Part shown: piece after piece, positions 22,061 to 64,000 of the stretch
Layout: each line of letters opens with the position of its first letter
Position numbering within the stretch: position 1 is the first letter of the stretch
Assembly (NCBI GenBank): GCA_046563655.1
Contig: CM102283.1
Coordinates: 4,588,001-4,652,000, forward strand
Direction: 5' to 3'
DNA: 64,000 bases
Origin: Yuukianura sp. NJ FZ-2021
Taxonomy: Eukaryota
The notes under the pieces: generated by a model
What the model saw: only the letters and a program-made list of their open reading frames with translations
Databases searched by the model: none
What the model was told of the DNA's origin: nothing
Program-made: the position numbers and the translations under genes

Positions 22061-22155
22061 AGTAGAGGGGTCGGTAGGAATTTTACCTCATTTAATTTTA
22101 GCTCAGCCGCGGGGGCTAGTCGGGCGCAATATTGGGGAGGGGAAAAACCTAAAAA
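22061..22155 (+). repeat. Left terminal inverted repeat (TIR) of the Polinton (~95 bp, imperfect)
   Basis: Reverse complement of ~41166-41260 with a few mismatches; contains GCTCAGCCGCGGGGGCTAGTCGGGCGCAATATTGGGGAGGGG. Confidence 0.93.
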
Positions 22156-22503
22156 TATTCTCAGCCCATAGAAATCCCCCCTCCCCAATAAATTATAAAA
22201 TACAAAATGTTAACAAGAAAATAGTCGACGAAAAATGTCGACAATGAAAAAGTCAATTACTTAATTTTAATTTCAATAAGATAATAAATTAAAAACAAAA
22301 TGTATGAAAAACATAGTTATTATTTAGATTAAGTTAATTGAGATGATTTTGTATAATAAAAAGACCAAACAAAAATAATAAGTTTTTCTTGAAAAATATG
22401 AACGTATGATCAGTTAACTTAATACGTTGCGCGCGATATTGGAGGAGGATGAAAAACCACATGGATTCTTATTGCTATGATGAACTGAATGTGACTGCGA
22501 TAC

Positions 22504-25966: not shown

Positions 25967-26484
25967 GTGGAATTGCAAATGTAACTTATTGTTACACGGA
26001 ATGGCAGAGTGGGCTCTTTGGAGAACTTAAAGCTAAAATTCCTGGCATTCAGTTTGTTCATGGACTACCCGAGAAATGGCACGATGGTACAGATCGATCT
26101 TCGATTATGGTTCTGGACGATTTGATGCATGAAGCTGGAAAGATGGGAGAAGTCGGAGCAGCATTTACGAGAACTTCTCATCACCGAAATGTGTCGCTGA
26201 TTATTCTTGTACAAAACTTTTTCCATAAAAATCTGAGGGAAATTACACTCAATTGCCAGTACTTGGTTCTGATGAAGAATCCACGAGACTCTGCATTTGC
26301 ATCTTGTCTTGGACGGCAAATGAATGGAGGAAAGCAGAACGCAACAATGGATCTGGCATATAAGGAAAGCATGGCGAAACCCTATGGATATCTTTTGATA
26401 GACTTAACTCAATCACAAAAAGACGAATTTCGAATTCGAAGTAGTATTTTCCCCGAAAATTGTTATGTTTATGTCAACGACTAA
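25939..26484 (+). pseudogene. 5'-truncated A32/FtsK-like packaging ATPase of the outer Polinton
   Basis: The frame of ORF 26107 extends upstream as VTYCYTEWQSGLFGELKAKIPGIQFVHGLPEKWHDGTD, then Walker B VLDDLM and SHHRNVS..QN. Walker A is missing. Highly similar to 34147-34962. Confidence 0.88.
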
Positions 26485-28748: not shown

Positions 28749-29273
28749 TTACAATTTTATACAACACTGATTTATTATTTTGTGTTTACATTTACAATTT
28801 GAATTCAATAAATGATTTTTCAATGTAACAAATTTGCGTACTTTTTTATCATTTAAATTTCTATTGGGAGAAAAGTAGCAGTAAGTAGATAGAATACAAC
28901 AGCCATGCATCATTTTATACAAAAAGTAAATTGCATATTGTCCGCAAACATCAGAATCAATAGCTTGCAATGGTCTAGTGTTTTCCAAAATTTTACATGA
29001 AAACTTATTTACAAAATTTCTAAAGTCGTCAGGATAAAAGTCCAGTCCAAGTCCATAAGAGCAAAAGAAGATGATTGGTCCAGTCCTGCCTCCAATGTAG
29101 ATTGCCACCCAATGTTCTCCAGGATGATTTGATGGCTTGTTGTTTACAACCAAGTAGGCTGGGAAGCGAGAAATTGTTAGCTTTGCCAGCAGGTTGCATG
29201 GAATTACATTGAAATATGCTCTTGTTCCGCGAGTCATATTTGATAGAAATTGGTAAATTTGAGTAGTGTCCAT
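28749..29273 (-). CDS. Adenain-like cysteine (maturation) protease, 174 aa
   Basis: VVNN, PGEHWVAIY (His), FCSYG, LQ...VCGQYAIYFL (Gln/Cys). Its ATG overlaps the MCP stop codon (TAATG). Confidence 0.92.
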   Translation of the reverse strand: MDTTQIYQFLSNMTRGTRAYFNVIPCNLLAKLTISRFPAYLVVNNKPSNHPGEHWVAIYIGGRTGPIIFFCSYGLGLDFYPDDFRNFVNKFSCKILENTRPLQAIDSDVCGQYAIYFLYKMMHGCCILSTYCYFSPNRNLNDKKVRKFVTLKNHLLNSNCKCKHKIINQCCIKL

Positions 29274-30375
29274 TAGTGAGAATAATCCTTGAAGAACACG
29301 TTGTTTCCTTCGTCTATGTAGAGCGTCGATTGAAAGTCAGCGTGACAAATGACGTTCCAGGCTTCAGTGATCCCCTTTGCAAACTGAACAACGATTTTTA
29401 TACTCCCATGTCTTGGAGGACAGTAGCCTTGATTCATCTCTCGAAGGTTAAAAATGAAAAAAGCCTTTCCATTTGTAAACTCCTTGAGGCTAATAGCAGG
29501 TCCTTCGTTGCTAGCACTTAGACCAAGTCCGCTAAACATGCCATAGTATGCTTCGGAAACTCGAACATCTCCATCGCTGTCATATTGGTAGGCTTGATGA
29601 TAAAGCTGCTCTCCATTTGCTGTCACAGAAATTTGTCTCAACTCTGGTGGCTTAAAGTCAAATGGATTCGTAGTTAGAGTTCCGTTCATTTTATCACTTT
29701 GTACTAGACAAAGTATAATTCTGTCGGGGAGTAATCCACTAATCAAGTTTTCATTGACATTTGACACGGTCCCAAGCGGCAAACTGTATGTCTTCATCTC
29801 AATCCGTCGCATTGGATAGCATGCTGGTTGTCCATTAGCCCACATCTTCAAATGACAATTCAAAATATTCGGCAGTAGTGTGTGTTTTTTGACTAAAAGT
29901 CTGGCTTCAGTAATGTTGATTTTGTAGCGTGTATTTTGAGCGTCAGCTTGAGAGTGGAGTGCAAACTCTTCAGTTGAGCGATTGAAAGTTACTCTAATGT
30001 CAATTCCAGGAATCAAGTAGCGAGTTTGAGCAAAGATGTCTGCAAACGGTCGTCCAATCATATCCAACCCCTTGGCAGCTAATTCTTGTCTCTTTTTGTG
30101 TGAAGCGTCCGTGTCACTCAAATTCTCTTCATCTCTCAAGTAAAGAGCTGTCACAGCTTGAGTATCCTTGTAATCTCCTCCATAAGCAAGCACAGTCTCA
30201 ATGCTCGATAAGGCTCGATAAGGATAGAGCGACATTGTGGGGGTAATTTGTGTTTCATTTAGAAACACAGAACACTGCTGGAATAGGGAATGTAAAAAGT
30301 TGTTGACTGGAGCAATTCGCATGGTAGCTCTATCATCGAGTGGATCTTGATTGGCTTTTAAAATTTTACAGCGGA
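29273..30375 (-). pseudogene. Major capsid protein (double jelly-roll), 3' part of the split gene
   Basis: PVNNFLHSLF, YPYRA..IETVL.Y, DIFAQTRYLIPGIDIRV, G.LPDRIIL, NPFDF are typical Polinton MCP motifs. Joins 38592-38799 in frame once the nested insertion is removed. Confidence 0.9.
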
Positions 30376-30598
30376 CATATAGTAGATAGCAAGTGAGGAC
30401 AACCGCATACTCCGGTTAGTCGGCCGCAATATTGGGGAGGGAAAAAACTCACAATGACAAAAAATGTCGTCAACAAAAAAGTCGACAACAAAAATGTCGA
30501 CAAAAAAAGATCGAAAACAAAAATGTCGACAAAAAATGTCGATAACAAAAAAGTCGACAACAAAAAACAAGTAGTGAAATTTTTGTATAGAAAATTCG

Positions 30599-30740
30599 AA
30601 CATTGACTCTAGCCTAGTGTCTAAGTGCTTGTAACTACTTCTCTACGGCCGCTGGTTCGAATACCACACGGGTCAACCCTTGTGGTTAAGAAGTTACAAG
30701 TACTTAGATACAAGACTGGGGTCAATGTTATTATTTTTTT
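30599..30740 (+). ncRNA. Candidate Pol III-transcribed long-hairpin RNA (VA-RNA-like), copy 1
   Basis: A-box-like TAGCCTAGTGT at 30610 and B-box-like GGTTCGAATACC at 30654. The 30599-30640 arm pairs with the 30688-30729 arm (42 bp, 4 G-U pairs, 3 mismatches). T7 at 30734-30740. Confidence 0.65.
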
Positions 30741-30953
30741 ATTTATTTTTAGTTAAGGGTTGAGTTCTTGGAAAAATATCTTTTCTCAAGAAAAACGTTT
30801 TTTCTTGGAAAGTTCTCAAAATAACATTTCTTTAGAAAAAAACGTTTTTGAAAAATTTCAAAATAGCATTTCAAACGTTGTCCAAGTAGTACTTAAACAG
30901 CGAGTTTTGAGACTAGCAATCATCAGTTCGGAAACCAGTCTCAAACTATAAGC

Positions 30954-31805
30954 ATGCGAGGATTCAGGTCATACATGGAGGTTTCGGAACCGTTTATTGA
31001 CATGGAAGATGTTATCGCAGTCAAGATTTCTGGACATTCGATTCTTCTGACAGCAGAGGAACTGCCAACCGTGGTGGAAAAGCTAGTAAAAGCATACATA
31101 GCCGCAGGGGAAATGATGAAGGATTTACCACACTTTGAAACAATCATGGCAACTAACCGCAAGAATGGATTCCTAAAGTTATTTCGTCAGCAGTCACCCG
31201 CAGAGTTTCAAACACTCAAAGAAAAGCTGGAGCGACCGCTTCTTCCTATCCAATGCATCACAGGCAATGTGAATCGAGTGTTTCTCATACGTAGCGGTCG
31301 TCCACTTCCCATCGAAATCATGGACATTCCTCTTCTGGTGGAATCACTTCTAAAGTGTGGCTGCTTTCCGACCTCATATACAGAAAAGTATCTGGATGAG
31401 CTCATTCATGAGTCAAAACGTGAATACATGAGAAAGCTACGCGATAAAATTCTCAACACACGTGCCAACAGAATTAAAGAAACAATTGGCAAGGCTGCCG
31501 GTTTAAAGACGAACAAGAAAGTTCATCCATACAAAAAACCAAACGTGTTTCACCGATTTGCCTGCTATTTATCGCCAGAGTCCTTCATTTTAAATCCAGC
31601 CTACTCGAAGCATGTTCTAGACGTTACCAAACATCAACAAATTCAAATTAACAACCAAAGACGCACTCCAAACCATGACTTTAACGAGCACTTTAGACTG
31701 GTCCATCTTAACATGTATCGTCAATCGTCGTACTCTGATGATACAGTTCTCAACATTATTTTTTATGGTGTTAAGCAAATTTCAGCTTTTGACATTTTTT
31801 GTTAA
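30954..31805 (+). CDS. Hypothetical protein, 283 aa
   Basis: Intact ORF preceded by TACTTAAA (30890) and TCAGTT (30923), followed by AATAAA (~31842). An internal motif occurs twice (LLTAEELPTVVEKL / IEIMDIPLLVESL) and resembles IEMKEIPFLVSKL in 40162-40584. Confidence 0.75.
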   Translation: MRGFRSYMEVSEPFIDMEDVIAVKISGHSILLTAEELPTVVEKLVKAYIAAGEMMKDLPHFETIMATNRKNGFLKLFRQQSPAEFQTLKEKLERPLLPIQCITGNVNRVFLIRSGRPLPIEIMDIPLLVESLLKCGCFPTSYTEKYLDELIHESKREYMRKLRDKILNTRANRIKETIGKAAGLKTNKKVHPYKKPNVFHRFACYLSPESFILNPAYSKHVLDVTKHQQIQINNQRRTPNHDFNEHFRLVHLNMYRQSSYSDDTVLNIIFYGVKQISAFDIFC

Positions 31806-32464
31806 ATTGTATAATCTACTTTAGTAGCAGTTTTTGTATTTGAATAAATTCAAACTTGTACATTCTCAAATTTTTTGTTGTTTGGGTTATTTTATTTTGA
31901 GAATGTCGTTTGAGAGTCGTTGAACTTTTAGTCCTTTCTATTTTTAGACAAAGTCGAAAAAACGTTTATTTTTCCTAGAATTAGGAAAAGACTCGTTTCT
32001 GTTGAAAAACGTTTCGAGTTGTTCGTTTAATCCTTTTTCCAAGAAATTTAAGGTAGTAGAGTGTTCGAACGTTGTTTTACCTCATTTATTTTTAGCTCAG
32101 CCGCGGGGGCTAGTCGGGCGCAATATTGGGGAGGGGAAAACCCCTCAAAAAATACATAATGACAAAATCTCAACATCTAAAATGGCAAAATGTCAAAAAC
32201 GTCAACAACAAAAATGTCAACAACAAAAAGGCCGACAACAAAAAAGTCAAAACACAAGTATTGGAATTTTTCATAAAAAAATTCGAAAAGTTCTTTTCAA
32301 AACAACTTGTCACAAGAAAAAACGTTTTTTGAAAATATTTTAAAATAGCATTCAACCATTGCTTCGATGGCTACTTAAACAGTGAACTCTGAATCTAGAA
32401 ATCGTCAGTTCTAAACTTAGTAGTGGAAATTACAACATTCCTACTCCATAGCCATTCTCAAAAG

Positions 32465-33169
32465 ATGGAAGATGTAAAACATGAAATTGCTCTCCGAGTA
32501 AGAGGCATTCCATGGGAAAGACGTCCAGAAAAGTGTCCTGGATTTTATATAACTCCAATTTGTTTGCAAAACTCGTCAGCGTTTAAAACTCACGAAGAGT
32601 ACAAAGCGCTTCCAGTTACTCGGGTTTGCGATCACAGTCGCTGCAACTATAGTGGTGAATACGACTACATGATTGAAAAACTGTTTGGAGATGGAGTATT
32701 TAAATCAGCTGATTTGCAAGAAATTATGGACGAAATTTCGCGACTCCGAAAATTTAAAAAGTATTATTGCAAATACATGCAATGTTCTGGATTCATTTTA
32801 CGAAAGGGGAAGAAAGCAACAGCCGACCCACATTCCCTAGTTCCTGGTTATGACTTTTCCAGAAGCAAAGAAGCTCCTTATACCTTACCATGCAACGGCT
32901 GGAACTGTGATACAACGACGTTCGCAAAGTACATTATCAATGCGGCTTTAGCCCGTGGATATTTGGCTCCAACGTATTCTCTTCGAAATAATCCACTCAT
33001 CATCCTGGAAAAAGTGGGGTGGACGGCAATGCTGAATGCAACTCCTCATGAAACACATAAAGAATTTATTCAAAATTCAGAAAACTGGCTTGCAAAACAA
33101 TGGAAGTTTCTGTGGAGCCCTGACGTTCTCTACACTGCGCGTCAACAACGAATATCTCATTTTGCTTGA
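32465..33169 (+). CDS. Hypothetical Cys/aromatic-rich protein, 234 aa (arm copy 1)
   Basis: Intact ORF from ATG 32465, preceded by TACTTAAA (32372) and TCAGTT (32405). Confidence 0.75.
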   Translation: MEDVKHEIALRVRGIPWERRPEKCPGFYITPICLQNSSAFKTHEEYKALPVTRVCDHSRCNYSGEYDYMIEKLFGDGVFKSADLQEIMDEISRLRKFKKYYCKYMQCSGFILRKGKKATADPHSLVPGYDFSRSKEAPYTLPCNGWNCDTTTFAKYIINAALARGYLAPTYSLRNNPLIILEKVGWTAMLNATPHETHKEFIQNSENWLAKQWKFLWSPDVLYTARQQRISHFA

Positions 33170-33460
33170 AGTTTATTTCGAGTATGTCGTTTCCGAGTCG
33201 ACGACCGTTTAACCTTTTTTATTTTTAAGATTCCGAGAATGTCGTTTTGACTCGTTTAACCTTGTATTTTTTCAAAATAGTTTTAAAAGATAGGAATGTA
33301 AGCCGTTTCTTGGAAGAAGGGTCGTTTCTGTTGAAAAACGTATCCCCAAATATTTTAAAAGATGGCTACAGAGTACAAAGTATTCAAGCTGAAACGCTTG
33401 AACACCTCATGGCTGGATTTATCCAACCCAGCCCCGGGGAAGCCTTTGGGTCGTGTGAGC

Positions 33461-33522
33461 CAGCCCTTGGACGCCAGCCCTTGGACGCCAGCCCTTGGAC
33501 GCCAGCCCTTGGACGCCAGCCC
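33461..33522 (+). repeat. 14-bp minisatellite TTGGACGCCAGCCC x4
   Basis: Read directly; the mirror arm has 6 copies at ~37095-37185. Confidence 0.95.
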
Positions 33523-33544
33523 TCAATTCGCATGAATTTTTAAC

Positions 33545-34030
33545 GTAATATAACAACTTCACTGCATAATACAATGGTCTCTCTACATAATACAATGGCC
33601 TATCTGTATAATACAATGGCCTCTCTGCATAATACAATGGCCTCTCTGCATACTACCATGGCCCAGTTGTATAATACCACAACGTCATTACATAATGCCG
33701 AGTTTATTCTGTACAACAGAGCGAGTTTGCGAGAGTAAAGTCTAGACTTTGTCAATGTCACGGGAACTTACTCCGTGAGTACACCTTGCAGAGTTCTTCC
33801 TCGGGATTATTTCCCGCAGGTAACCTTCCTTCGAGAGTCAGATCATCGTCAATACCATGGTCACGTTGTATAATACCATGGCCACATTGTATAATACCAT
33901 GGTCACGTTGTATAATACCATGGTCACGTTGTATAATGCCATGGTCACGTTGTATAATACAATAACCTCACTGCATAATACAACATTTTTTGTCAATTTT
34001 ACATCCAATCACCACCACCACCACCACCAC
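33545..34030 (+). repeat. Two blocks of a 21-bp minisatellite (TATAATACCATGGTCACGTTG-like) followed by (CAC)n
   Basis: Blocks at ~33545-33700 and ~33850-33985, (CAC)n at ~34010-34030; mirrored at ~36590-37075. Confidence 0.9.
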
Positions 34031-34058
34031 AACCCCAACGTGCCCACCCATGCAAAAG

Positions 34059-34094
34059 TATAAATAGCGACGTTGACTTGCTCATCTCTCAGTT
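34059..34094 (+). promoter_or_regulatory. TATA box plus initiator at the inner end of the left arm
   Basis: TATAAATA 34059-66 and TCAGTT 34089-94 (30-bp spacing) upstream of the ATPase. Confidence 0.7.
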
Positions 34095-34146
34095 TCGTTT
34101 CAGACGTTGAGCTGTTAAGACGTGAAGATTCTGTGGACTATACATC

Positions 34147-34962
34147 ATGGATACCAGTACAGCGTGTGATATTTGCTGCAGACAATTCTCACGAAGGGAC
34201 GCATTGAAACGGCACAAGTTAACTTGTCATAGTAGCGTCGCAGTATCGAAAATGCTTCAGGTATGCATGAATCAGCGGGAAAAATCTACTATGTTTCGAC
34301 ATGTATACTCTGGGAAAAAGTTTGACCCGCATTTGGTTGCACCGTTTACTATGTGTATCAGTGGAATGACTCAGAGCGGCAAAAGCACCCTTGTGAAGCA
34401 AATACTTCTACGACGAATCGAAATTATCGAGACTAATATTGACAAGCCCTTGGAACGTATCATGTATTGCTACACTGAGTACCAGCCTACGCTGTTTGGA
34501 GAATTGAAGACCAAGATTCCAACTATACAATTTCATCGTGGACTTCCTGAAAAATGGCATGACGGAACCGACAAGCCGTCAGTCGTCGTCCTTGACGATT
34601 TGATGCATGAAGCAGGCAAAAACAGAGAAGTTGGAGCTGCGTTCACAAGGACTTCGCATCACCGCAACGTATCACTCATCATTCTTGTGCAAAACTTTTT
34701 TCACAGGAATATGAAAGAACTCACGTCAAACTGTCATTACATTGCTCTAATGAAGAATCCGCGAGACTCTCAATTTGTAGCTTGTCTTGGACGTCAAATG
34801 AATGGAGGAAAGAAGAATACAACCATGGAAGAAGCCTACAAGGAATGCATGTTAAAGCAATATGGATATCTATTCATCGATTTAACTCAACGACAAAATG
34901 ATTTGTTTCGCATTAGAGATAATATATTTCCTGAAAATTGTCGAATCTATGTTAATGAATGA
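34147..34962 (+). CDS. A32/FtsK-like packaging ATPase with N-terminal C2H2 zinc finger, 271 aa, intact
   Basis: CDICCRQFSRRDALKRHKLTCH; Walker A GMTQSGKST; Walker B VVVLDD; SHHRNVSLIILVQN; YGYLFIDL; AATAAA at ~34965. Confidence 0.93.
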   Translation: MDTSTACDICCRQFSRRDALKRHKLTCHSSVAVSKMLQVCMNQREKSTMFRHVYSGKKFDPHLVAPFTMCISGMTQSGKSTLVKQILLRRIEIIETNIDKPLERIMYCYTEYQPTLFGELKTKIPTIQFHRGLPEKWHDGTDKPSVVVLDDLMHEAGKNREVGAAFTRTSHHRNVSLIILVQNFFHRNMKELTSNCHYIALMKNPRDSQFVACLGRQMNGGKKNTTMEEAYKECMLKQYGYLFIDLTQRQNDLFRIRDNIFPENCRIYVNE

Positions 34963-35059
34963 ATGAATAAACACATTACACGATAAAAGTTCTATTTTCA
35001 AGTTTTTTATTCTGAAAATTCGGAATCTAACGAATTTACAGTCATAAAGGTGTATAATT

Positions 35060-36457
35060 CTACGAAATTACGCTAGTGAAAAACTCTCCAAGTATTGGTA
35101 ATGCGGCAGCGAGAAGAGCTGGCAGGAACCCGCCGTGCTGTATAAGTAGTTTTTTCTTGTCTTCAATCGATCCTTTAGCTTCTGCAACACGTTTAATCTT
35201 ATATCGATGCGGTCTCAAGATATTTTTGACGGTGGCCTCAATAGGAATGTTGCCCTGGATTACGTCCTGAACACATTTGTGTAACCCAAGAATTTGACCA
35301 CGAGACGCTGTGGAGAGCAGTGTCTCGCGTATAATAGGGGAGTGTTGGTTCATCTGGTGGAGAAATTGATAATGTCGTATGGGACCTGGTGATGGTTTAG
35401 CTCCTCCAGTTTGTCTATACTCTTCTTCCCCTTCTTCATCCCTTTCGTCTTCCTCGTTTTCCTCCTCTTCTTCTACTTCTTCTTCTACTTCTTCTTCCCA
35501 TTCTTCATCCCCCTCGTCTTCCTCATCATCTTCTTCTTCTTCATTTTCTACATCACTTTCCACGTGCGGGCGATTTCTAGAAAGCTTTTTAGGTTCATCT
35601 CGACCGAGCAAGCCTCGGTGGCTGATCGGAAGCAGATATTTTGGAATGCCTGTCTGAATCATAAAGTCTACGATGACAGGAATCATTTGTCTTGTCAACT
35701 TATATCTTCCATCCGCAAGTTTTCGTATTCCCTCCTCGAACTCGCTCCTGGATATGTTGGCATCACCCAGACTAACGCTATTGTTCGCAAAGGTTGCACC
35801 ATTTGCTACAAAAAATTGTGCTAGCTGTTTTCCTACAGCTGAAAACTGGTCCATAGTAAACGGTGGAGTTGTCGGTGCTGCTGTCGGCGTTTCATCTTTC
35901 GCTATTTGCGATTCTTTTTTAAATCTCTTGGAAAATGGCATCTCGAGCGCGTCATTCGGCTTTACCACAGTATTTGACCAACCATTCGTTGGATTTTCTG
36001 ACCAGGTCGTAATTCGGTCATATCTGTCTTCGGTTTTTCTGGCTGACTTTTCCGGTACACCATCCCATCCGCTAAAGTGGCTTGTAGCCATATCATTCAA
36101 CCGCCTATCGTTTACAACGTTCACATTGACGTAGCCTTCCCTTTGCTTCCGTTGATTTTCCAAGTTCTGGCGTAATTCCGTTTGCATCATATGATTCTGA
36201 AGTTCGATTGGAATGTTGTTCCCAGAATCTCGCGAATTACGCTCATGAAGCTCCATTGGTCCACGGCTCTGAGACATGTTCATTGTATGTTGCTGTAAGT
36301 ATTGTACGGGTGTAGTATCAAGCAAAAAACCATCATGGATTTGCTTTTCTCCAAAATAACTTTTGCAAGGGCTGTTTTGCTGAGACTCATATGTCTCAAG
36401 CCGATCCAGTAGACTGTTGTAGTCGTCTTGGTGAACAAGAATGTATTTTTGCGCCAT
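35060..36457 (-). CDS. 465-aa fusion of two Polinton core-gene homologs joined by an acidic linker
   Basis: The middle (QFFVANGAT..KLADGRYK..LLP) matches 28071-28728; the C-terminus (QHGGFLPALL) matches 27733-28068. An E/D-rich tract and QTGG lie between them. Confidence 0.85.
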   Translation of the reverse strand: MAQKYILVHQDDYNSLLDRLETYESQQNSPCKSYFGEKQIHDGFLLDTTPVQYLQQHTMNMSQSRGPMELHERNSRDSGNNIPIELQNHMMQTELRQNLENQRKQREGYVNVNVVNDRRLNDMATSHFSGWDGVPEKSARKTEDRYDRITTWSENPTNGWSNTVVKPNDALEMPFSKRFKKESQIAKDETPTAAPTTPPFTMDQFSAVGKQLAQFFVANGATFANNSVSLGDANISRSEFEEGIRKLADGRYKLTRQMIPVIVDFMIQTGIPKYLLPISHRGLLGRDEPKKLSRNRPHVESDVENEEEEDDEEDEGDEEWEEEVEEEVEEEEENEEDERDEEGEEEYRQTGGAKPSPGPIRHYQFLHQMNQHSPIIRETLLSTASRGQILGLHKCVQDVIQGNIPIEATVKNILRPHRYKIKRVAEAKGSIEDKKKLLIQHGGFLPALLAAALPILGEFFTSVIS

Positions 36458-36523
36458 GACTGTTAGCCTAACCGCTCCAGATGGTAAAATCTTCACGTCT
36501 TAACAGCTCAACGTCTGAAACGA

Positions 36524-36559
36524 AACTGAGAGATGAGCAAGTCAACGTCGCTATTTATA
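36524..36559 (-). promoter_or_regulatory. Mirror TATA plus initiator facing the 465-aa gene
   Basis: Reverse complement of 34059-34094. Confidence 0.7.
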
Positions 36560-37476
36560 CTTTTGCATGGGTGGGCACGTTGGGGTTGTAGTGGTGGTGG
36601 TGGTGGTGATTGGATGTAAAATTGACAAAAAATGTTGTATTATGCAGTGAGGTTATTGTATTATACAACGTGACCATGGCATTATACAACGTGACCATGG
36701 TATTATACAACGTGGCCATGGTATTATACAATGTGACCATGGTATTATACAACGTGACCATGGTATTGACGATGATCTGACTCTCGAAGGAAGGTTACCT
36801 GCGGGAAATAATCCCGAGGAAGAACTCTGCAAGGTGTACTCACGGAGTAAGTTCCCGTGACATTGACAAAGTCTAGACTTTACTCTCGCAAACTCGCTAT
36901 GTTGTACAGAATAAACTCGGCATTATGTAATGACGTTGTGGTATTATACAACTGGGCCATGGTAGTATGCAGAGAGGCCATTGTATTATGCAGAGAGGCC
37001 ATTGTATTATACAGAGAGGCCATTGTATTATGTAGAGAGACCATTGTATTATGCAGTGAAGTTGTTATATTACGTTAAAAATTCATGCGAATTGAGGGCT
37101 GGCGTCCAAGGGCTGGCGTCCAAGGGCTGGCGTCCAAGGGCTGGCGTCCAAGGGCTGGCGTCCAAGGGCTGGCGTCCAAGGGCTGGCTCACACGACCCAA
37201 AGGCTTCCCCGGGGCTGGGCTGGATAAATCCAGCCATGAGGTGTTCAAGCGTTTCAGCTTGAATACTTTGTACTCTGTAGCCATCTTTTAAAATATTTGG
37301 GGATACGTTTTTCAACAGAAACGACCCTTCTTCCAAGAAACGGCTTACATTCCTATCTTTTAAAACTATTTTGAAAAAATACAAGGTTACACGAGTCAAA
37401 ACGACATTCTCGGAATCTTAAAAATAAAAAAGGTTAAACGGTCGTCGACTCGGAAACGACATACTCGAAATAAACT

Positions 37477-38181
37477 TCAAGCAAAATGAGATATTCGTTG
37501 TTGACGCGCAGTGTAGAGAACGTCAGGGCTCCACAGAAACTTCCATTGTTTTGCAAGCCAGTTTTCTGAATTTTGAATAAATTCTTTATGTGTTTCATGA
37601 GGAGTTGCATTCAGCATTGCCGTCCACCCCACTTTTTCCAGGATGATGAGTGGATTATTTCGAAGAGAATACGTTGGAGCCAAATATCCACGGGCTAAAG
37701 CCGCAATGATAATGTACTTTGCGAACGTCGTTGTATCACAGTTCCAGCCGTTGCATGGTAAGGTATAAGGAGCTTCTTTGCTTCTGGAAAAGTCATAACC
37801 AGGAACTAGGGAATGTGGGTCGGCTGTTGCTTTCTTCCCCTTTCGTAAAATGAATCCAGAACATTGCATGTATTTGCAATAATACTTTTTAAATTTTCGG
37901 AGTCGCGAAATTTCGTCCATAATTTCTTGCAAATCAGCTGATTTAAATACTCCATCTCCAAACAGTTTTTCAATCATGTAGTCGTATTCACCACTATAGT
38001 TGCAGCGACTGTGATCGCAAACCCGAGTAACTGGAAGCGCTTTGTACTCTTCGTGAGTTTTAAACGCTGACGAGTTTTGCAAACAAATTGGAGTTATATA
38101 AAATCCAGGACACTTTTCTGGACGTCTTTCCCATGGAATGCCTCTTACTCGGAGAGCAATTTCATGTTTTACATCTTCCAT
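37477..38181 (-). CDS. Hypothetical protein, 234 aa (arm copy 2)
   Basis: Identical to 32465-33169 except one residue (YIINAA vs YIIIAA). Confidence 0.75.
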   Translation of the reverse strand: MEDVKHEIALRVRGIPWERRPEKCPGFYITPICLQNSSAFKTHEEYKALPVTRVCDHSRCNYSGEYDYMIEKLFGDGVFKSADLQEIMDEISRLRKFKKYYCKYMQCSGFILRKGKKATADPHSLVPGYDFSRSKEAPYTLPCNGWNCDTTTFAKYIIIAALARGYLAPTYSLRNNPLIILEKVGWTAMLNATPHETHKEFIQNSENWLAKQWKFLWSPDVLYTARQQRISHFA

Positions 38182-38591
38182 CTTTTGAGAATGGCTATGG
38201 AGTAGGAATGTTGTAATTTCCACTACTAAGTTTAGAACTGACGATTTCTAGATTCAGAGTTCACTGTTTAAGTAGCCATCGAAGCAATGGTTGAATGCTA
38301 TTTTAAAATATTTTCAAAAAACGTTTTTTCTTGTGACAAGTTGTTTTGAAAAGAACTTTTCGAATTTTTTTATGAAAAATTCCAATACTTGTGTTTTGAC
38401 TTTTTTGTTGTCGGCCTTTTTGTTGTTGACATTTTTGTTGTTGACGTTTTTGACATTTTGCCATTTTAGATGTTGAGATTTTGTCATTATGTATTTTTTG
38501 AGGGGTTTTCCCCTCCCCAATATTGCGCCCGACTAGCCCCCGCGGCTGAGCTAAAAATAAATGAGGTAAAACAACGTTCGAACACTCTACT

Positions 38592-40161: not shown

Positions 40162-40584
40162 TTAAAATTTTGTGTCTTCGATCCAGTATTTTTGTGTATC
40201 AACTTCGTCGTAGTCTTCTTCGGGGATACTATTCAGACGAGGTTTCAGTGATGGAGATTTTCGGTTCCAGACAGCATTGCTCATCGCTTCAGCTACAATG
40301 TCCATTTTCGGCTTCTTTGCTTGTTGACCCTTATCCTCGTAACGCTCCTTGCAATCCAGCAGCAATAGTTCAAAGTTTGGCAGCTCACTCATTGGATGGC
40401 CCGTAGACAGAAAGAAGAGAATCAGCTTCGAAACCAGAAAAGGAATTTCCTTCATCTCAATTGTAGTGTAGTAGCGATCCTTCTTGATAAAGACTTTGTA
40501 TTCTCCATCTTCCAGCTTCCACCAACATTTGACACGATCTTCAAGAGTCTTGCGCACGAATCCTGCAGCGTATGCTTCAACCAT
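40162..40584 (-). CDS. Hypothetical protein, ~140 aa
   Basis: Intact ORF; probable ATG 40584 downstream of ATAAAAA...TCAGTC; acidic DYDEVD tail. Confidence 0.6.
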   Translation of the reverse strand: MVEAYAAGFVRKTLEDRVKCWWKLEDGEYKVFIKKDRYYTTIEMKEIPFLVSKLILFFLSTGHPMSELPNFELLLLDCKERYEDKGQQAKKPKMDIVAEAMSNAVWNRKSPSLKPRLNSIPEEDYDEVDTQKYWIEDTKF

Positions 40585-40902
40585 TGTGGTAATTGAGAAG
40601 TAGTTTTTGAGGAGAAGTTCCGACTGAAGCTGTGATGAGACTGATGGTTTGACGAGCATTTGAGTAGCCTTTTTATTTCAAGTTTTCAGGTAGAAAACTT
40701 AACCTTTTTTCCAATTATAGAAAAAGGAAACGTTCTAACGACTAAAATTTCTTGGGAAAAAAGGATTAAACGAACAACTCAAAAACGATTTTCAACAGAA
40801 ACGAGCCTTTTCCAAGAAAAGGGTTAAATTACTATTTTAGGATTTTTCAAAAAACGTTTTTCTAGAGAATTTGTTTTGAACTTTTTTAATCCAAAAAATT
40901 TG

Positions 40903-41044
40903 AAAATAGCAATAACATTGACCCCAGTCTTGTATCTATGTACTTGTAACTTCTTACCCACAAACGTTGACCCATGTGGTATTCGAACCAGCGACCGCAG
41001 AGAAGTAGTTACAAGCACTTAGACACTAGGCTAGAGTCAATGTT
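40903..41044 (-). ncRNA. Candidate Pol III-transcribed long-hairpin RNA (VA-RNA-like), copy 2
   Basis: The 131-nt hairpin (41044 to 40914) differs from copy 1 at about 7 positions; the A- and B-box-like motifs are identical. T4 (40906-03) and T6 (40898-93) lie downstream. Confidence 0.65.
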
Positions 41045-41165
41045 CGAGATTTCTATGAAAAAATTAAAATACTTGTTTTGTGGGGTTGACCTATTTGCCG
41101 TTGACATTTTTGATGTTGATATTTTTGATGTTGATATTATTGTCAATGTTTTGTCGTTTTTTAGA

Positions 41166-41260
41166 TTTTGAGGGTTTTCCCCTCCCCAATATTGTGCCCG
41201 ACTAGCCCCCGCGGCTGAGCTAAAAATAAATGAGGTACAATTCCTACCGACCCCTCTACT
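41166..41260 (-). repeat. Right terminal inverted repeat of the Polinton
   Basis: Reverse complement of 22061-22155. Confidence 0.93.
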
Positions 41261-41312: not shown

Positions 41313-41510
41313 TGTTTGTTTGTTTGTTTGTTTATTACACTGCAAGTACCCTGCATGCAGGCAATTACACTTGAGTTTGAGTTAAGTTAAGAAAGGATGT
41401 GTACTTTAGTTACTTGGTAGGTCAATGAAAACAATTATTGAAAAATGTGAGACAATTTAGAAAGAATTACATTAGTAAAATTAAGATTAAAAGTTGAAAT
41501 TAAAATTATT

Positions 41511-44346
41511 TCAGACAAAAGAATTACTTAGGGTGGAGTCAAGACAGGACATATTTGCTAGGTTTGAACTTTTTGTCGTCGTCAAGATTTGTAAATTCAG
41601 AAAATGCTTGTGAAGGGCATTCCGGAAGTGTTCAAATGATTTGTCAATTCCAAGATCCTGAAGTTCAGTCGGTAAGGCGCAGATTATTTTGGCAATTGTA
41701 GGAATGAAGGCCTTTGGATGGAAACGCTTGTCATTCATGGAGACATAGGATCCGCTTCGTGTTGATTTTCTTTGTTTTAGACAGTTTTCAATTTGTAAGA
41801 TGGTCTCTTGGAAGTATGGGATTTGATGAGATTTCATTTTTGCAAATACTTGAACCAATTCGAAAAGGTTGTGATGAGTAGGTAGTAGCCATTGGAGTTC
41901 AAAGTTTAGCTTCTCCATGATACTGTCACGTTTTCTGAGTTGATAGATGAATCTTATACTTTTCCGAAAAATCTTGTTGATGCACTTAAATTGGGAGATT
42001 TTGCAGTTTGCCCAAATGATCAGCATGTATCGCAAAATTGGAGAGATGTACGAAGTAACCATTAGCTTCCTGTGTTTTTCGGAGAGAAGATTCTGAATTG
42101 GATAGAGTGACCACAGAATTGAATTGCATTTCTTGATTATGGAGATGTGATGTTCACACCATGTTAACGTATTGTCAATTGTAAGACCGAGTGATTTGAA
42201 TGATGTTACACTTGTCACACTAGTGTTTCCCACTTGAAGTTGGATTAAGCCAATTTTGTCAATTATTTTCTTCTTCCCAATCAAAAGCACTTTGGTTTTT
42301 TCTATGTTCAATGACATATGATTGCTTTTCATCCAGTTATTAATTTTTCCAATTAATATTTCTGCTGTTTGAATTAAGGAATTCAAATGGTCTGGATCAT
42401 CTGCAAGCACAATGTTGTTGTAGTCTGCAAATAGAATTGCAGACGCTTCAGTGATGATTTCCAAAAGGTCATTGATCATAATGGCAAACAGTAGAGGACC
42501 AAGTACTGAGCCTTGTGGAACTGACAAAATAGTTTGACGGGAACTTGAACTTGAATTGTTAATTTCTACATGCTGTGACCTACTGCTCAGATAGGATTCA
42601 AACCATTTAGTTGAAATGTTGTACCACTGCATTTTATCAATAAGGAAACCTTTGTTGACCGTTTCAAAAGCCTCTTTGAGATCCAAGGAAATCACCAGAC
42701 AGATTTTGCCATGATTAAGGTGGGAGTATATTGTGTCCATTAGTGCCAGTTGAGCCAATGTAGTTGAGTGGTGCTGTCGAAATCCAAATTGGGCCTTATT
42801 CAGTAGAGAGTGGCTGTTCAAAAACTCAGTTAATTGATAGTGAGCAACTTTTTCTAAGAGTTTACCAAGCACTGGTTGGAGGGAGATTGGTCTAGTGTCG
42901 GATGGGTGTTTTGGAACTTTCACTTTTGGCAATGGAACAACTTTTGAATGTTGAAACAATGATGGAAACACTTTTGTTTCAAAGCTTTTGTTTACAAGAT
43001 TTAGCAGTTGCGTTTTTATGTTAGGCGCACTTTCACTGTGGGAAATAATCCAGTTTGAAATGCCGAATTGATCGCTACTTCTGGATTGTTTGTTTTTCAC
43101 ATTCTTCCAAATCTTGTTAAATTGATGAACTGTCACTGGCTTGAGATCAAAAGTTTCAGGGGGAGTGGCAATAGAAGTTGGTTTGATTGGGCAAAGTGTC
43201 GATACTGTTTGAGGTGTGGTGATTGAAGTAAAATATTCATTGATTTCATCTGCACTGAAAGGGAGATCATTGAATTTTGATTTTGTTTTTGACCAGACTT
43301 TTGAAATTGCCTTAAAAGGGCCAAGTTTTTCAATGTCAAGGTTTAAGGTGTCTTTTCTATCACGTAATACAGCTGACTTCACTTTTTTTTGATTTGTTGT
43401 AATTCGAGCTTGAGTGCTTGATCTCTATTTTTGACACTTCCAAGCTGGTCCCTTAATAAAATCAGATTTTTGGTTTCTAGTGAAAGTGTAACTGGCACAA
43501 CTTTCGGTACAAATGAAACAGTTTTGGTTTTTGCTGTGTCATCAAAGTTGGTTTTGATTTTCTGCATAAATTCGTGGAACTGAGAATTTAAATCCATATC
43601 ACTGGTTTGGAATGTTGTGAACACATTCTTGAGGCCAAATTCCTTAAAGTCAAAATTTTTGTAGTCTCGATATGTAAACTGCACTCGTGGAATCTTTGGC
43701 TTCGTCAAGTTGAGTGTTAGAAGGGTCATCGCATGGTCGGAGAGATGGGGATCGATGACACTATGATCCACTACTGTTGTTTTTGAGTTAGTGAATATTA
43801 GGTCGAGTATTGACTCTCCCCTGGTTGGTTGCTCCACTAGTTGATGAAATATGGATGTTGTTTTTTTAACAAGATGACGACATTTAGGAGGAATGTACTT
43901 CTGGTTTAAGTTGAAGTCTCCAAAGACGAAGCTGTTTTTCCTGCTGAGACTCAATTCATTAAAGAGTTTGTTTAATGAATCTAAATCACTGTTGATTATT
44001 TCAGAAGAGAATTTGGAATACGGTAAACACTGGAGGCGAGAAAGCATTTGTTGTGGTTGAGTTGAATTGATAGGGTAATCACTTCAAAGTTACAGTTAAG
44101 AGGCAAGTTGACAACTTTCACTTTTGACTTCAGGGTAGATCTAACAAGGATGCCTACACCTCCTTTTGCTTGCCATTCTCTGTCTAGGTGAAAGAATTCG
44201 AATCCTTCAATTGATCTTGGTGGGTTAGTGATCTTCAGATGCGTTTCAGAGATACACAAGACGTCGAGATTGTAAGAGTCGATCAGTATTTTTATTAATT
44301 CACATTTAGAGTTGAATCCACAAACATTAAGGCCAGCAATTTTCAA
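41511..44346 (-). pseudogene. LINE ORF2: AP endonuclease plus reverse transcriptase, frameshifted
   Basis: GLNV, ISETHL, GDFN, ILDLIF and SDH (APE); RPISL, QFGFR and PQGSVLGPLLF (RT). The catalytic FADD reads FADY. Frameshifts near 44010-44040 and 43385 (T9 run). Confidence 0.92.
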
Positions 44347-44388
44347 TTTTTTACAGGAAGTTGATGGAGCCGCGTCAAGATGATCTAG

Positions 44389-45138
44389 TCATTTCTGGTT
44401 TGGGTGAGAATTACTAACTCGAGGTTGAGGCAAAATTGTAGGATTTGACGTGCGTTTGAGTGCTCTGTTGATTCTTGTAGCTTTGGGTACGTCATCTCTA
44501 AGTACAAGTCTATCACCAGGTGGTGAGGTCGGCAAATCAAATCGTTTTCCCCAAACAGCGTTTCTTTCGTTTCTGGATCTGAAAACGATTTTTACGGGAG
44601 GAATTCGAGTGCCATTGAAGTTACCAAGACGGGAGGAGGCAGAGACGAAGTTAGTGTTAGTGAGTCCAGTCAATTCAGAGCAGAGATTTTCAATGTAATC
44701 GTTAAGTAGAGATTCGGTTTCATTCGTAAGTTTGTTCAGTCCATGCAGGATGAGGTTCGATTTACCAAGTTCAATCTGGATTTGTTCAATTTCCTTGTCA
44801 TGTGTGGATAGTTTGGCAGTGTCCGCATCTTGTCTTGATTCAACAATAGAAACTCGGCTTTGAAGTGATGTGATTTGAGATGAGAGGTCGGTAATTTGCT
44901 GGGACAGTTTGTGATTGTCTTTTTGTAGATCAATTCGAAGCTGATTAATGGCTGCCAGTACAGTTTCGTTGGTCATTTTCGGTTTCTTTGGGCCAAGGGA
45001 AGCAGAATTGTCGTCGACTGAAATATTGGCTTTTCGTTTTGAACTTCTTGTGTTTGGTTGATTTGTGTTTGGCAACTGAACAACGTTCGCAGTGTCTGGT
45101 GGAGTATTAATCGTGGAGTCACTGGTTAGGGAACTCAT
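44389..45138 (-). CDS. LINE ORF1 (coiled coil plus RRM-like domain), ~249 aa
   Basis: Heptad segment (LSQQITDLSSQITSLQSRV) followed by NLILHGL...RLG...PVKIVF, typical of LINE ORF1; lies immediately 5' of ORF2. Confidence 0.8.
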   Translation of the reverse strand: MSSLTSDSTINTPPDTANVVQLPNTNQPNTRSSKRKANISVDDNSASLGPKKPKMTNETVLAAINQLRIDLQKDNHKLSQQITDLSSQITSLQSRVSIVESRQDADTAKLSTHDKEIEQIQIELGKSNLILHGLNKLTNETESLLNDYIENLCSELTGLTNTNFVSASSRLGNFNGTRIPPVKIVFRSRNERNAVWGKRFDLPTSPPGDRLVLRDDVPKATRINRALKRTSNPTILPQPRVSNSHPNQK

Positions 45139-45479
45139 TGGAAGGATGTACAATGTCCGTCAGGCACCAAAAGATTACTTCCATGTCCGTTTGCTTGTTT
45201 GATGAGTTTTTTCTGGATGTCCGCAAGAGCCTTTAGTCCAATGTTCGTTGATGTTGATCCGTGGAGGTCACGTATGTCAATGGAAGCACCAGTTATGTCC
45301 AGGTGTTTCGTCCAGATGATTGTAACTGATGATTGCACGAAGTGGGATTAACTCACACTTGAAGATTCAATTAGCAATTGATTTGAACTGTGAATTTGGG
45401 ATGCACGGTGTTAAAATGGCGCCTGGTGGGATACTCCGTTGAAATTGTGTAGTTGAGTGGACTATTGCTGCGAGAGGAG

Positions 45480-63400: not shown

Positions 63401-64000
63401 CTTTTAGTTTAGGAACAGTTTCGCCTGCGTTTTAAGTTGAAATTAGATATGCTTTGGAACAGCTATTTTATTAAAACCCGCTTGCATTTGGACAAAGAGT
63501 AAAGCGGATTTTTTTCAAAATTTCTGAGTGCGACCACTAAATTCTAAGGCTATACAGACACATCTCATTCCATTCTAACGCTATTATACAATGGTGTTTG
63601 ATATGCCGCCTGTTAGTTTAGGAACAGTTTCGCCTGCGTTTTAAGTTGAAATTAGATATGCTTTGGAACAGCTATTTTATTAAAACCCGCTTGCATTTGG
63701 ACAAAGAGTAAAGCGGATTTTTTTTCAAAATTTTTGAGTGCGACCACTAGATTCTAAGGCTATACAGACACAGCTAAGTCCATTCTAACGGTATTGTACA
63801 ATGGTGTTTGATATGCCGCCTTTTAGTTTAGGAACAGTTTCGCCTGTGCTTTAAGTTGAAATTAGATATGCTTTGGAACAGCTATTTTATTAAAACCCGC
63901 TTGCATTTGGACAAAGAGTAAAGCGCATTTTTTTCCAAAATTTTTGAGTGCGACCACCAGATTCTAAGGCTATACAGACACATCTCATTCCATTCTAACG
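45480..64000. repeat. 210-bp satellite array, right block (~88 monomers, more heterogeneous, with higher-order structure)
   Basis: Same monomer and orientation; resumes in register after the LINE TSD and carries diagnostic variants (GCCTGTTAG, GACATTAG, ACATACATCT, AAATCTCTG). Confidence 0.99.

What the first reader, a model, noticed from the sequence alone, without database searches (positions are those of the whole stretch)
30599..30740. Candidate Pol III-transcribed, VA-RNA-like long hairpin RNA encoded by a Polinton
Seen: a 131-nt inverted repeat whose arms form a ~42-bp stem. Four of the seven non-Watson-Crick positions are G-U on the + strand and would be A-C on the other strand, which favours an RNA structure with + polarity. 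On the same strand lie TAGCCTAGTGT (A-box consensus TRGCNNAGYGG, one mismatch) at +12 and GGTTCGAATACC (B-box consensus GGTTCGANTCC, one mismatch) 44 nt further on, which is tRNA-like spacing. A T7 tract follows 5 nt after the stem. Known: adenoviruses, relatives of Polintons, make ~160-nt type-2 Pol III VA RNAs that antagonise PKR and Dicer and yield small RNAs. Inference: this Polinton family makes an analogous dsRNA-like RNA, perhaps a decoy for host RNAi or a small-RNA precursor. I am not aware of such an RNA being described for Polintons, but could not search.
Basis: partly seen in the sequence, partly recalled or inferred. Interest (0 to 1): 0.9.

Follow-up and report, generated by a model that had tools for sequence, protein, structure and literature searches.

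The report
tRNA-derived hairpin cassette in Polinton end
A virus-like jumping gene (Polinton) carries, just inside its end, a well-preserved 131-base hairpin built from a degenerate leucine-tRNA gene that still has the signals for RNA polymerase III, so it may make a small structured RNA, but no such RNA has yet been seen.

Summary
Window 30599-30729 is a 41-position imperfect stem (34 Watson-Crick, 4 G-U, 1 A-C, 2 A-A) with a 49-nt top. It has an A box at 30610, a B box at 30654 (44 nt apart) and a T7 run at 30734-30740.

- **Chance:** such a box pair is expected 0.003 times per element.
- **Second copy:** 41044-40914 (minus strand) lies in the order terminus, 15-bp repeats, hairpin, first gene. 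This is inside a 19.2-kb Polinton bounded by inverted repeats and a TACAG(A) duplication.
- **Conservation:** the stems are 81 of 82 identical and the top 43 of 49. The adjoining non-coding DNA is only 62-78% identical.
- **Absence:** a third terminus has the same flanks but lacks the ~165-bp cassette.
- **Origin:** the T-arm matches 15 of 16 bases of a tRNA-Leu gene carried by a related metagenomic Polinton. No cloverleaf, Rfam tRNA hit or Rfam VA hit remains.
- **Expression:** the only RNA evidence is one 260-nt metatranscriptome contig. It starts 150 nt upstream and carries 12 T>C changes, so it is not the predicted ~140-nt transcript.

Best reading (0.4): a selected Pol III hairpin-RNA gene, which works like VA/TMER RNAs but is not a member of those families. 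Rivals are a passenger SINE/MITE and a cis-acting DNA or leader element.

The parts
30599..30729 (+). Hairpin copy B. The 5' arm is 30599-30639, the apical region 30640-30688 and the 3' arm 30689-30729. It lies in an internal, truncated terminal module.
   Evidence: loose end at 30414 in other genomic copies
30610..30620 (+). A-box-like TAGCCTAGTGT (1 mismatch), inside the 5' arm
30654..30664 (+). B-box-like GGTTCGAATAC (1 mismatch, A at the tRNA C61 position), in the apical region. GGTTCGAATACCACAC matches 15 of 16 bases of the T-arm of the L053 tRNA-Leu.
30734..30740 (+). T7 run 4 nt after the stem, a candidate Pol III terminator. It is part of the poorly conserved T-rich tail 30730-30764.
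40914..41044 (-). Hairpin copy D, in the native position near the right terminus. A box 41033-41023, B box 40989-40979, T4 at 40906-40903 and T6 at 40898-40893.
30460..30566 (+). Array of 15-bp repeats (AAAAATGTCGACAAC, about 7 units) just upstream of hairpin B. Equivalent arrays lie at 41085-41142, 32194-32254 and 38392-38452.
41165..41260 (-). Right terminal inverted repeat of the 19.2-kb Polinton (94.8% identical to 22061-22156)
22061..22156 (+). Left terminal inverted repeat. The element is flanked by a TACAG(A) target duplication in the 210-bp satellite. This end has no hairpin and no 15-bp array.
32279..32296 (+). Empty site in terminus C (AAATTCGAA|AAGTTC, junction at 32287/32288). The flanks are the same but the ~165-bp cassette is absent. 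The mirror copy lies in the right repeat of element C (32055-38591).
30954..31805 (+). First ORF downstream of hairpin B (283 aa), on the same strand as the hairpin's + sense. It is weakly related (28% over 50 aa, E 1e-5) to the ORF downstream of hairpin D.
40162..40659 (-). First ORF downstream of hairpin D (165 aa)

Best explanation
The hairpin is a tRNA-Leu-derived cassette fixed in the non-coding sub-terminal module of one Polinton family. The order there is terminus, 15-bp repeats, hairpin, first gene.

The cloverleaf has decayed. The two internal Pol III promoter boxes survive at tRNA spacing, and an inverted copy of the first ~41 nt has been added. A transcript that starts about 10 nt before the A box and ends in the T run would therefore snap back into a 41-bp imperfect stem with a short U-rich 3' overhang.

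**Shown**
- The structure.
- The non-chance box pair.
- The tRNA-Leu likeness.
- The fixed position at two diverged termini.
- Much stronger conservation of the stem than of the top and the flanks.

**Inferred**
- Pol III transcribes it into a ~135-140-nt RNA.
- That RNA acts through the host double-stranded-RNA machinery, as a small-RNA precursor or as a decoy for Dicer- or ADAR-type proteins.

It works like adenovirus VA RNA, herpesvirus TMERs or retroviral Pol III pre-miRNAs. It is not a sequence relative of any of them.
For: - **Box pair.** It is expected 0.0033 times per element, and only the two hairpin copies in 64 kb have one.
- **tRNA-Leu likeness.** The T-arm stretch is identical at 15 of 16 bases to a bona fide tRNA-Leu(UAA) in the related Polinton L053. 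The global alignment beats 2000 shuffles at p = 0.0025.
- **Related Polintons carry Pol III genes.** L052, L053 and L070 carry a tRNA-Leu-type unit about 1.3 kb downstream of the ATPase gene; ARAGORN calls the first two. In L053 it lies between an ORF and the integrase gene.
- **Conservation, B versus D.** 5' arm 41/41, 3' arm 40/41, top 43/49. Spacer 25/32, tail 20/32, downstream 60/79. Fisher p = 1.2e-6 for hairpin versus flanks and p = 0.011 for stem versus top. Both boxes are unchanged.
- **Flanks no closer.** The flanks of the two hairpin-bearing termini are no closer to each other (75-79%) than each is to the hairpin-less terminus C (71-84%).
- **Polarity.** The + strand folds 15 kcal/mol better than the - strand, with 4 G-U against 1 A-C.
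- **Terminator.** Both copies have a T run of 4 or more within 8 nt of the stem and no TTTT inside it.
- **Copy number.** In DNA run X1 the word depth over the hairpin (10.1-10.8 thousand) tracks that of the adjoining terminal module (11.5-13.2 thousand, except one repeat bin at 6.4).
Against: - **No discrete transcript.** The only RNA-library contig (X7, depth 3.13, 260 nt) covers 30448-30703. It belongs to a longer RNA or to contaminating DNA. Its 12 T>C changes would be A-to-I edits of a minus-strand RNA.
- **Box mismatches.** Each box departs from consensus at a position that real tRNAs keep: the last G of the A box, and the C61 equivalent of the B box (recalled numbering).
- **Cassette dispensable.** Terminus C lacks it cleanly.
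- **Possible other context.** One X1 contig (794 nt, depth 112) matches only 30597-30725, at 84%, with unlike flanks.
- **No homologue elsewhere.** None was found in 80 related metagenomic Polinton loci (355,919 nt) by blastn, box scan, inverted-repeat scan or covariance model. Most of those contigs are short and may lack termini.
- **No covariation.** The two copies are too alike, and the single stem difference breaks a pair.
- **Weak polarity statistic.** The G-U bias is not significant on its own.
Confidence: 0.4

Rival explanations
1. Passenger mobile element. A tRNA-derived SINE- or MITE-like unit entered the sub-terminal spacer of an ancestral Polinton, or enters that site repeatedly. 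It rides along and does nothing for the Polinton.
For: - There is a clean presence/absence difference of a ~165-bp unit against terminus C, with homologous flanks on both sides.
- Body conserved, tail variable and flanks diverged is the usual pattern for SINE copies.
- The hairpin (94.7% identical) looks younger than its flanks (75-79%).
- One X1 contig holds the hairpin alone at 84% identity in unlike flanks.
- The makeup fits: tRNA-type boxes with a decayed cloverleaf.
Against: - No target duplication is visible at the borders.
- The tail is T-rich on the box-bearing strand, not A-rich.
- Both copies sit at exactly the same site in termini that differ by over 20%. This needs inheritance or strict site specificity.
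- Differences cluster in the top (6 of 49) and spare the stem (1 of 82), p = 0.011. This is not expected from neutral decay after insertion.
- In X1, depth over the hairpin is not above that of the neighbouring terminal module.
- No copy lies elsewhere in the 64-kb window.
Confidence: 0.2
2. Cis-acting element that needs no Pol III RNA. Three forms are possible:
- a DNA signal of the terminal module, for packaging, replication or integrase binding;
- a TFIIIC-bound boundary that shields the first gene from the surrounding satellite chromatin;
- a hairpin in the leader of a Pol II transcript that starts in or before the 15-bp repeats.
For: - The position between terminus and first gene is fixed, next to a ~7-unit array of 15-bp repeats that is present at only one end of the 19.2-kb element.
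- Both arms are kept letter for letter, mismatches included. This suggests the sequence itself is read, not only the pairing.
- The RNA-library contig runs from the repeats into the hairpin (30448-30703), as a read-through transcript would.
- GTCAA(C/T) recurs in the repeats, in both stem ends and in the top (by eye).
- The element sits inside a satellite array. tRNA-type B boxes are known TFIIIC boundary sites (established knowledge, recalled).
Against: - Terminus C keeps the repeats and the downstream palindromes but lacks the hairpin, although its two 2.1-kb repeats are 98.3% identical, so it looks recent.
- A DNA palindrome gives no reason for G-U rather than A-C mismatches.
- A boundary or binding site would not need a 41-bp snap-back arm.
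- Nothing explains why both boxes are retained at exact tRNA spacing unless TFIIIC/Pol III is involved.
Confidence: 0.25
3. Dead relic. A tRNA-Leu gene once carried by the Polinton decayed and was partly duplicated in inverted form. It has no present function.
For: - Related Polintons carry real tRNA-Leu genes.
- The cloverleaf is gone.
- L070 carries a tRNA-Leu-like copy that ARAGORN does not call.
Against: The hairpin is conserved far above its flanks (p = 1.2e-6), and the boxes are intact while the tRNA stems are not.
Confidence: 0.1

Closest known systems
Adenovirus VA RNA I/II (Pol III, type-2 promoter)
   Same: Internal A and B boxes, a length of about 140-160 nt, a terminal stem formed by paired 5' and 3' ends, an oligo-U end, and a host element from the adenovirus/Polinton lineage. 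This is what it may work like.
   Different: - There is no covariance-model match, at gathering score or at E <= 10.
- The shape is a single long imperfect stem. No central domain is conserved, and the top folds differently in the two copies.
- It is sub-terminal, not mid-genome.
- Transcription and PKR/Dicer binding are untested.
Murine gammaherpesvirus 68 TMERs (tRNA-miRNA-encoded RNAs; PMC4337559, search listing only)
   Same: A tRNA-derived Pol III promoter on a DNA virus drives stem-loops that enter small-RNA pathways.
   Different: In TMERs a folded tRNA-like domain precedes separate pre-miRNA hairpins (recalled). Here the A box lies in the stem and the B box in the loop. No cloverleaf remains.
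Pol III-transcribed retroviral pre-miRNAs of bovine leukaemia virus and foamy viruses (PMC3993851, PMC7693620; listings and abstract starts only)
   Same: Hairpins that carry their own Pol III signals and a T-run end. In foamy viruses they sit in the terminal repeat of an integrating element.
   Different: Those precursors are shorter hairpins or ~120-nt dumbbells (recalled). No small RNAs are shown here.
tRNA genes carried by Polinton-like viruses and related mid-size DNA viruses (PMC12220804, section 16 read; PMC8502044, one figure-legend passage); also the tRNA-Leu in L052/L053 here
   Same: A Pol III gene inside a Polinton-type element. The T-arm is 15 of 16 bases identical to the L053 tRNA-Leu.
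   Different: This is not a tRNA: ARAGORN calls none, Rfam gives no tRNA hit, and the tRNA-like segment alone folds no better than shuffles (z -0.08).
tRNA-derived SINEs and MITEs
   Same: A/B boxes at tRNA spacing with a decayed cloverleaf, a variable tail, a presence/absence difference between paralogous sites, and long inverted arms.
   Different: No target duplication is seen, the tail is T-rich, and dispersal is not demonstrated. The position inside the Polinton terminal module is fixed, and conservation is uneven in favour of the stem.
Plasmodium RUF6 ncRNA (Rfam RF01581)
   Same: Full-length but sub-threshold model match (32.9 bits against a gathering score of 70). Both are ~150-nt hairpin-like RNAs with a B-box-like motif and a T-run end.
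   Different: The match is below threshold and reflects general shape, not homology.

Membership tests
Adenovirus VA RNA | Match to the Rfam VA covariance model | tested here: not met
   No match at gathering score and none at E <= 10 in 30560-30780
Adenovirus VA RNA | Intragenic A and B boxes with a T-run terminator | tested here: met
   Boxes at 30610 and 30654, each with 1 mismatch; T7 at 30734
Adenovirus VA RNA | Terminal stem, conserved central domain and apical stem | tested here: not met
   The terminal stem is present. The region above it folds differently in copies B and D.
Adenovirus VA RNA | Abundant ~160-nt Pol III transcript that binds PKR | not testable with these tools
   Only assembled contigs were available. 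The one RNA contig is longer and starts upstream.
tRNA gene | Cloverleaf with anticodon arm | tested here: not met
   ARAGORN finds 0 genes. Rfam gives no tRNA hit at E <= 10. Segment 30603-30680 folds at z -0.08.
tRNA-derived SINE | tRNA-type A and B boxes in the head | tested here: met
tRNA-derived SINE | Target-site duplication and an A-rich or LINE-like tail | tested here: not met
   No direct repeat lies at the borders against the empty site in C, and the tail is T-rich
tRNA-derived SINE | Many dispersed copies outside the carrier element | tested here: inconclusive
   Hairpin depth is about equal to that of the terminal module in X1. One contig holds the hairpin alone in unlike flanks. 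No genome was held.
MITE | Terminal inverted repeats flanked by a target-site duplication | tested here: inconclusive
   The arms are present. No duplication is seen. Only two copies were readable.
TMER-type tRNA-hairpin RNA | Folded tRNA-like domain upstream of separate pre-miRNA hairpins | tested here: not met
   The boxes lie inside the single hairpin, and there is no cloverleaf
Pol III-transcribed viral pre-miRNA hairpin | Hairpin that carries its own A/B boxes and a T-run end | tested here: met
Pol III-transcribed viral pre-miRNA hairpin | 21-23-nt RNAs derived from the arms | not testable with these tools
   No raw small-RNA reads were served
Polinton/Maverick (the carrier) | pPolB, rve integrase, packaging ATPase, terminal inverted repeats and a 5-6-bp target duplication | tested here: met
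   Pfam hits; repeats 22061-22156 / 41260-41165; TACAG(A) duplication

The most novel reading that the evidence does not exclude
A family of animal Polintons has turned a captured tRNA-Leu gene into a Pol III-driven snap-back RNA gene of about 135-140 nt, placed next to its terminus. Selection keeps both arms letter for letter because they give rise to guide small RNAs or bind host dsRNA sensors. This would be the first VA/TMER-type counter-defence or regulatory RNA in the Polinton-adenovirus lineage outside adenoviruses. It would also hint that VA-type RNAs arose from tRNA genes carried by the virus.
Probability: 0.3. Interest if true: 0.8.

Novelty: new variant of a known kind. Interest (0 to 1): 0.55.

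Why it matters
Polintons are the integrated relatives of adenoviruses. Their non-coding repertoire is known only from Rfam/ARAGORN-type scans, which report tRNAs, a 5S gene, introns and snRNA hits (PMC12220804, section 16).

A selected Pol III hairpin RNA would matter in three ways:
- It would add a virus-style small-RNA or dsRNA-decoy layer to Polinton biology.
- It would give a testable link between virus-borne tRNA genes and VA-type RNAs.
- It would offer a handle on how these elements deal with host RNAi and ADAR.

If it proves to be a passenger SINE/MITE or a DNA signal, it is an ordinary feature of a mosaic element.

Tried and rejected
- **Own genome:** none is held, so no genome-wide census of copies was possible.
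- **Earlier notes of this scan:** nothing relevant.
- **Exact patterns from the 3' arm:** 0 matches in viral contigs and 0 in metagenome contigs.
- **Neighbouring ORF (283 aa):** no relative in viral contigs and none among 479 candidates in the protein collection.
- **349-aa ORF 29273-30322:** no relative in viral contigs.
- **ATPase alignment A2:** no relative in viral contigs.
- **80 metagenomic Polinton loci:** no blastn likeness to the terminal module beyond two 40-44-nt AT-rich matches in L056. The covariance model found nothing beyond three junk hits at E 2-5.4. The only other long inverted repeats (L022 440-658, L044 8447-8620) have no boxes and look like ordinary MITEs.
- **Targets of arm-derived small RNAs:** no 20-mer of the hairpin matches 17 or more of 20 bases anywhere else in the window.
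- **tRNA-like alternative fold of 30603-30680:** not better than shuffles.
- **Runs X6 (soil metagenome) and X7 (metatranscriptome):** they hold only small shares. X6 does not cover the hairpin, so nothing is claimed about habitat.
- **Parts of the stretch without RNA cover in X7:** these prove nothing.
- **Element C as a simple nested insertion:** rejected, because it has no target duplication. The 19.2-kb element is a recombinant mosaic.

Full report
**1. The observation**

- The repeat finder reports arms 30591-30640 and 30688-30737 (50 nt, 80% complementary).
- Read without gaps, 30599-30639 pairs with 30729-30689 over 41 positions: 34 Watson-Crick, 4 G-U, 1 A-C and 2 A-A on the + strand.
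- As RNA the + strand folds at -68.3 kcal/mol (z -9.5; 0 of 200 shuffles as good). The - strand folds at -53.0 (z -7.0).
- TAGCCTAGTGT (30610) and GGTTCGAATAC (30654) each miss the A- and B-box consensus by one letter and lie 44 nt apart, as positions 8 and 52 of a tRNA do.
- A T7 run occupies 30734-30740.

A scan of the whole window on both strands found such a box pair only in the two hairpin copies. 300 Markov simulations of the element gave 0.0033 pairs per simulation. The ratio of 4 G-U to 1 A-C points to + polarity only weakly (sign test about 0.19, my arithmetic).

**2. The surroundings**

The hairpin sits in a 19.2-kb Polinton.
- The element carries pPolB, an rve integrase and an A32-type ATPase.
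- It is bounded by 96-nt terminal inverted repeats (22061-22156 and 41260-41165, 94.8% identical) and a TACAG(A) target duplication.
- It is inserted in a 210-bp satellite.
- Inside, it is a mosaic. Element C (32055-38591) has 2.1-kb inverted repeats that are 98.3% identical and no target duplication.
- The stretch that starts at 30414 is a truncated terminus. In other genomic copies the terminal repeat continues to the left of that point (loose end).

There is a second hairpin copy at 41044-40914 on the minus strand. It lies in what must be the native position: terminus, inverted repeat, an array of 15-bp repeats, hairpin, first ORF. Copy B has the same order and orientation. The two first ORFs are only 28% identical over 50 residues. 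The left end of the element has neither the array nor the hairpin.

**3. Conservation**

Between copies B and D:
- 5' arm: 41 of 41 identical.
- 3' arm: 40 of 41. The one change breaks a pair.
- Apical region: 43 of 49.
- Spacer before the stem: 25 of 32.
- T-rich tail: 20 of 32.
- Next 96 nt: 60 of 79, plus gaps.

Fisher tests give p = 1.2e-6 for hairpin against flanks and p = 0.011 for stem against top. Both boxes are unchanged.

The flanks of B and D (75-79% identical) are no closer to each other than each is to terminus C (71-84%). Terminus C lacks the cassette cleanly: AAATTCGAA|AAGTTC at 32287/32288 corresponds to the two borders of a ~165-bp unit made of the hairpin and its T-rich tail. 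I saw no target duplication at those borders.

There are two ways to read this. Either the hairpin is old and under purifying selection, with a loss in C, or it reached B and D more recently than their flanks diverged. The clustering of differences in the top favours selection on the stem. With two copies it is not proof.

**4. Origin**

ARAGORN calls no tRNA. Rfam gives no tRNA or VA hit even at E <= 10. Its best rows are generic hairpin models and a full-length sub-threshold match to Plasmodium RUF6 (32.9 bits against a gathering score of 70). The tRNA-like segment alone folds no better than shuffles.

Even so, GGTTCGAATACCACAC matches GGTTCGAATCCCACAC of a tRNA-Leu(UAA) gene at 15 of 16 bases. 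The D-loop TCTAAG is shared, and the global alignment beats shuffles at p = 0.0025.

That tRNA-Leu gene came from related Polintons found in metagenomes.
- The ATPase of this element has 74 relatives in the protein collection.
- An alignment of 28 of them retrieved 80 loci, 355,919 nt in all.
- In L052 and L053 a tRNA-Leu lies about 1.3 kb downstream of the ATPase gene. L070 carries a tRNA-Leu-like copy there that ARAGORN does not call.
- In L053 it sits between an ORF and the integrase gene of a compact element with a 1044-aa pPolB.

Carriage of tRNA genes by Polinton-like viruses is in print (PMC12220804, section 16 read; PMC8502044, one figure-legend passage). So the cassette is best seen as a degenerate class-II tRNA gene. 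It has kept its two promoter boxes, lost its stems and gained an inverted copy of its first ~41 nt.

**5. Expression and distribution**

Seven public runs hold part of 30300-31100. I laid four of them, all as contigs, on 30200-31200 at 80% likeness.
- **DNA runs X1 (organism A) and X3 (organism B).** Both hold near-identical copies. In X1 the summed word depth over the hairpin (10.1-10.8 thousand) is close to that over the terminal module upstream (11.5-13.2 thousand, except one repeat bin at 6.4). It is 2-10 times that of the neighbouring ORFs. This is a poor measure, but it gives no sign of a large separate family.
- **A hairpin-only contig.** One X1 contig (794 nt, depth 112) fits only 30597-30725, at 84%, with unlike flanks. 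This is either a diverged Polinton terminus or a copy elsewhere.
- **RNA run X7.** It has one 260-nt contig (depth 3.13) over 30448-30703. It begins about 150 nt upstream of any Pol III start. It differs from the window mainly by 12 T>C changes, plus C>G at 30678, which is also the majority letter in X1.
- **The T>C changes.** Five of the twelve places were listed (30583, 30586, 30595, 30610, 30615). None is followed by C, which fits ADAR's dislike of a 5' G (recalled) if the RNA is from the minus strand. Two of them also occur as minor DNA variants.
- **Status of this evidence.** It is a hint of dsRNA editing of a longer or antisense transcript. It is not evidence for the proposed RNA, and DNA carry-over is not excluded.

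No homologue of the hairpin turned up in the 80 related loci by blastn, box scan, inverted-repeat scan or covariance model. None turned up in two collection scans with 3'-arm patterns. Most of those contigs are short, so this is not evidence of absence.

**6. Verdict**

- **Best reading (0.4):** a selected, tRNA-Leu-derived Pol III gene for a ~135-140-nt snap-back RNA.
- **What it works like:** VA RNA, TMERs and retroviral Pol III pre-miRNAs (PMC4337559, PMC3993851, PMC7693620; listings only). It fails membership of the VA and tRNA families.
- **Rivals:** a cis-acting DNA, boundary or leader element of the terminal module (0.25); a passenger SINE/MITE-like unit (0.2); a dead relic (0.1).
- **Literature:** full-text searches found no paper that links Polintons with VA RNA (0 papers). 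None of the titles and abstract starts listed for Polinton with 'Pol III' or 'hairpin' concerns a Pol III hairpin RNA (listings only).

Noticed in passing
L053:6260-6346 (-), L052:5011-5097 (-), L070 near 2285-2370: Related metagenomic Polintons carry a tRNA-Leu(UAA) gene about 1.3 kb downstream of the ATPase gene. In L053 it lies between a 284-aa ORF and the rve-chromodomain integrase gene. The L070 copy differs at many positions and ARAGORN does not call it.
   Followed up: partly
window 30460-30566, 41085-41142, 32194-32254, 38392-38452: Arrays of 15-bp repeats (AAAAATGTCGACAAC, 4-7 units) lie just inside some termini but not at the left end of the 19.2-kb element. A one-sided array of short repeats next to a terminal repeat recalls the adenovirus packaging domain (recalled resemblance, untested).
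   Followed up: no
window 30448-30703 (run X7): A metatranscriptome contig differs from the window by 12 T>C changes and almost nothing else. The pattern looks like A-to-I hyper-editing of a minus-strand RNA. Two of the five listed sites are also minor DNA variants.
   Followed up: partly
window 30200-31200 (runs X1, X3): Among the places where genomic copies differ from the window, G>A is the commonest kind (11 of 33 in X1, 14 of 54 in X3). C>T is rarer (2 and 7). This strand-asymmetric spectrum is unexplained.
   Followed up: no
window 32055-38591: The inner element has 2.1-kb inverted repeats (98.3% identical), each holding an identical-length 234-aa ORF. An ATPase gene and a 465-aa acidic ORF lie between them. 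It has no target duplication, so the Polinton is a recombinant mosaic. A second, diverged ATPase fragment lies at 26013-26463 (74.7% identical to 34491-34941).
   Followed up: partly
window 41313-45480 (-): A non-LTR retrotransposon (endonuclease 43379-44047, reverse transcriptase 41511-42740, coiled-coil ORF 44389-45138) is inserted in the satellite 52 nt from the Polinton's right end.
   Followed up: no
window 1-22061 and 45480-64000: About 40 kb of a 210-bp satellite (92-97% matches between units) surrounds the mobile elements.
   Followed up: no
window 30954-31805: The 283-aa ORF next to the hairpin has no detectable relative among 479 candidates drawn from 5.8 billion clustered proteins, and no Pfam domain.
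   Followed up: partly
L044:7736-7830 and 8447-8620; L022:440-658: L044 holds a tRNA-like unit with perfect A and B boxes and a T7 run that ARAGORN does not call. It is flanked by ~27-nt direct repeats. L044 and L022 each hold a 74-76-nt-arm inverted repeat that looks like a MITE.
   Followed up: no
window 30791-30803, 30837-30849, 32321-32340, 40853-40866: The palindrome AAAAACGTTTTT(T) recurs between the hairpin or empty site and the first ORF in all three terminus types. It may be a promoter or operator motif.
   Followed up: no
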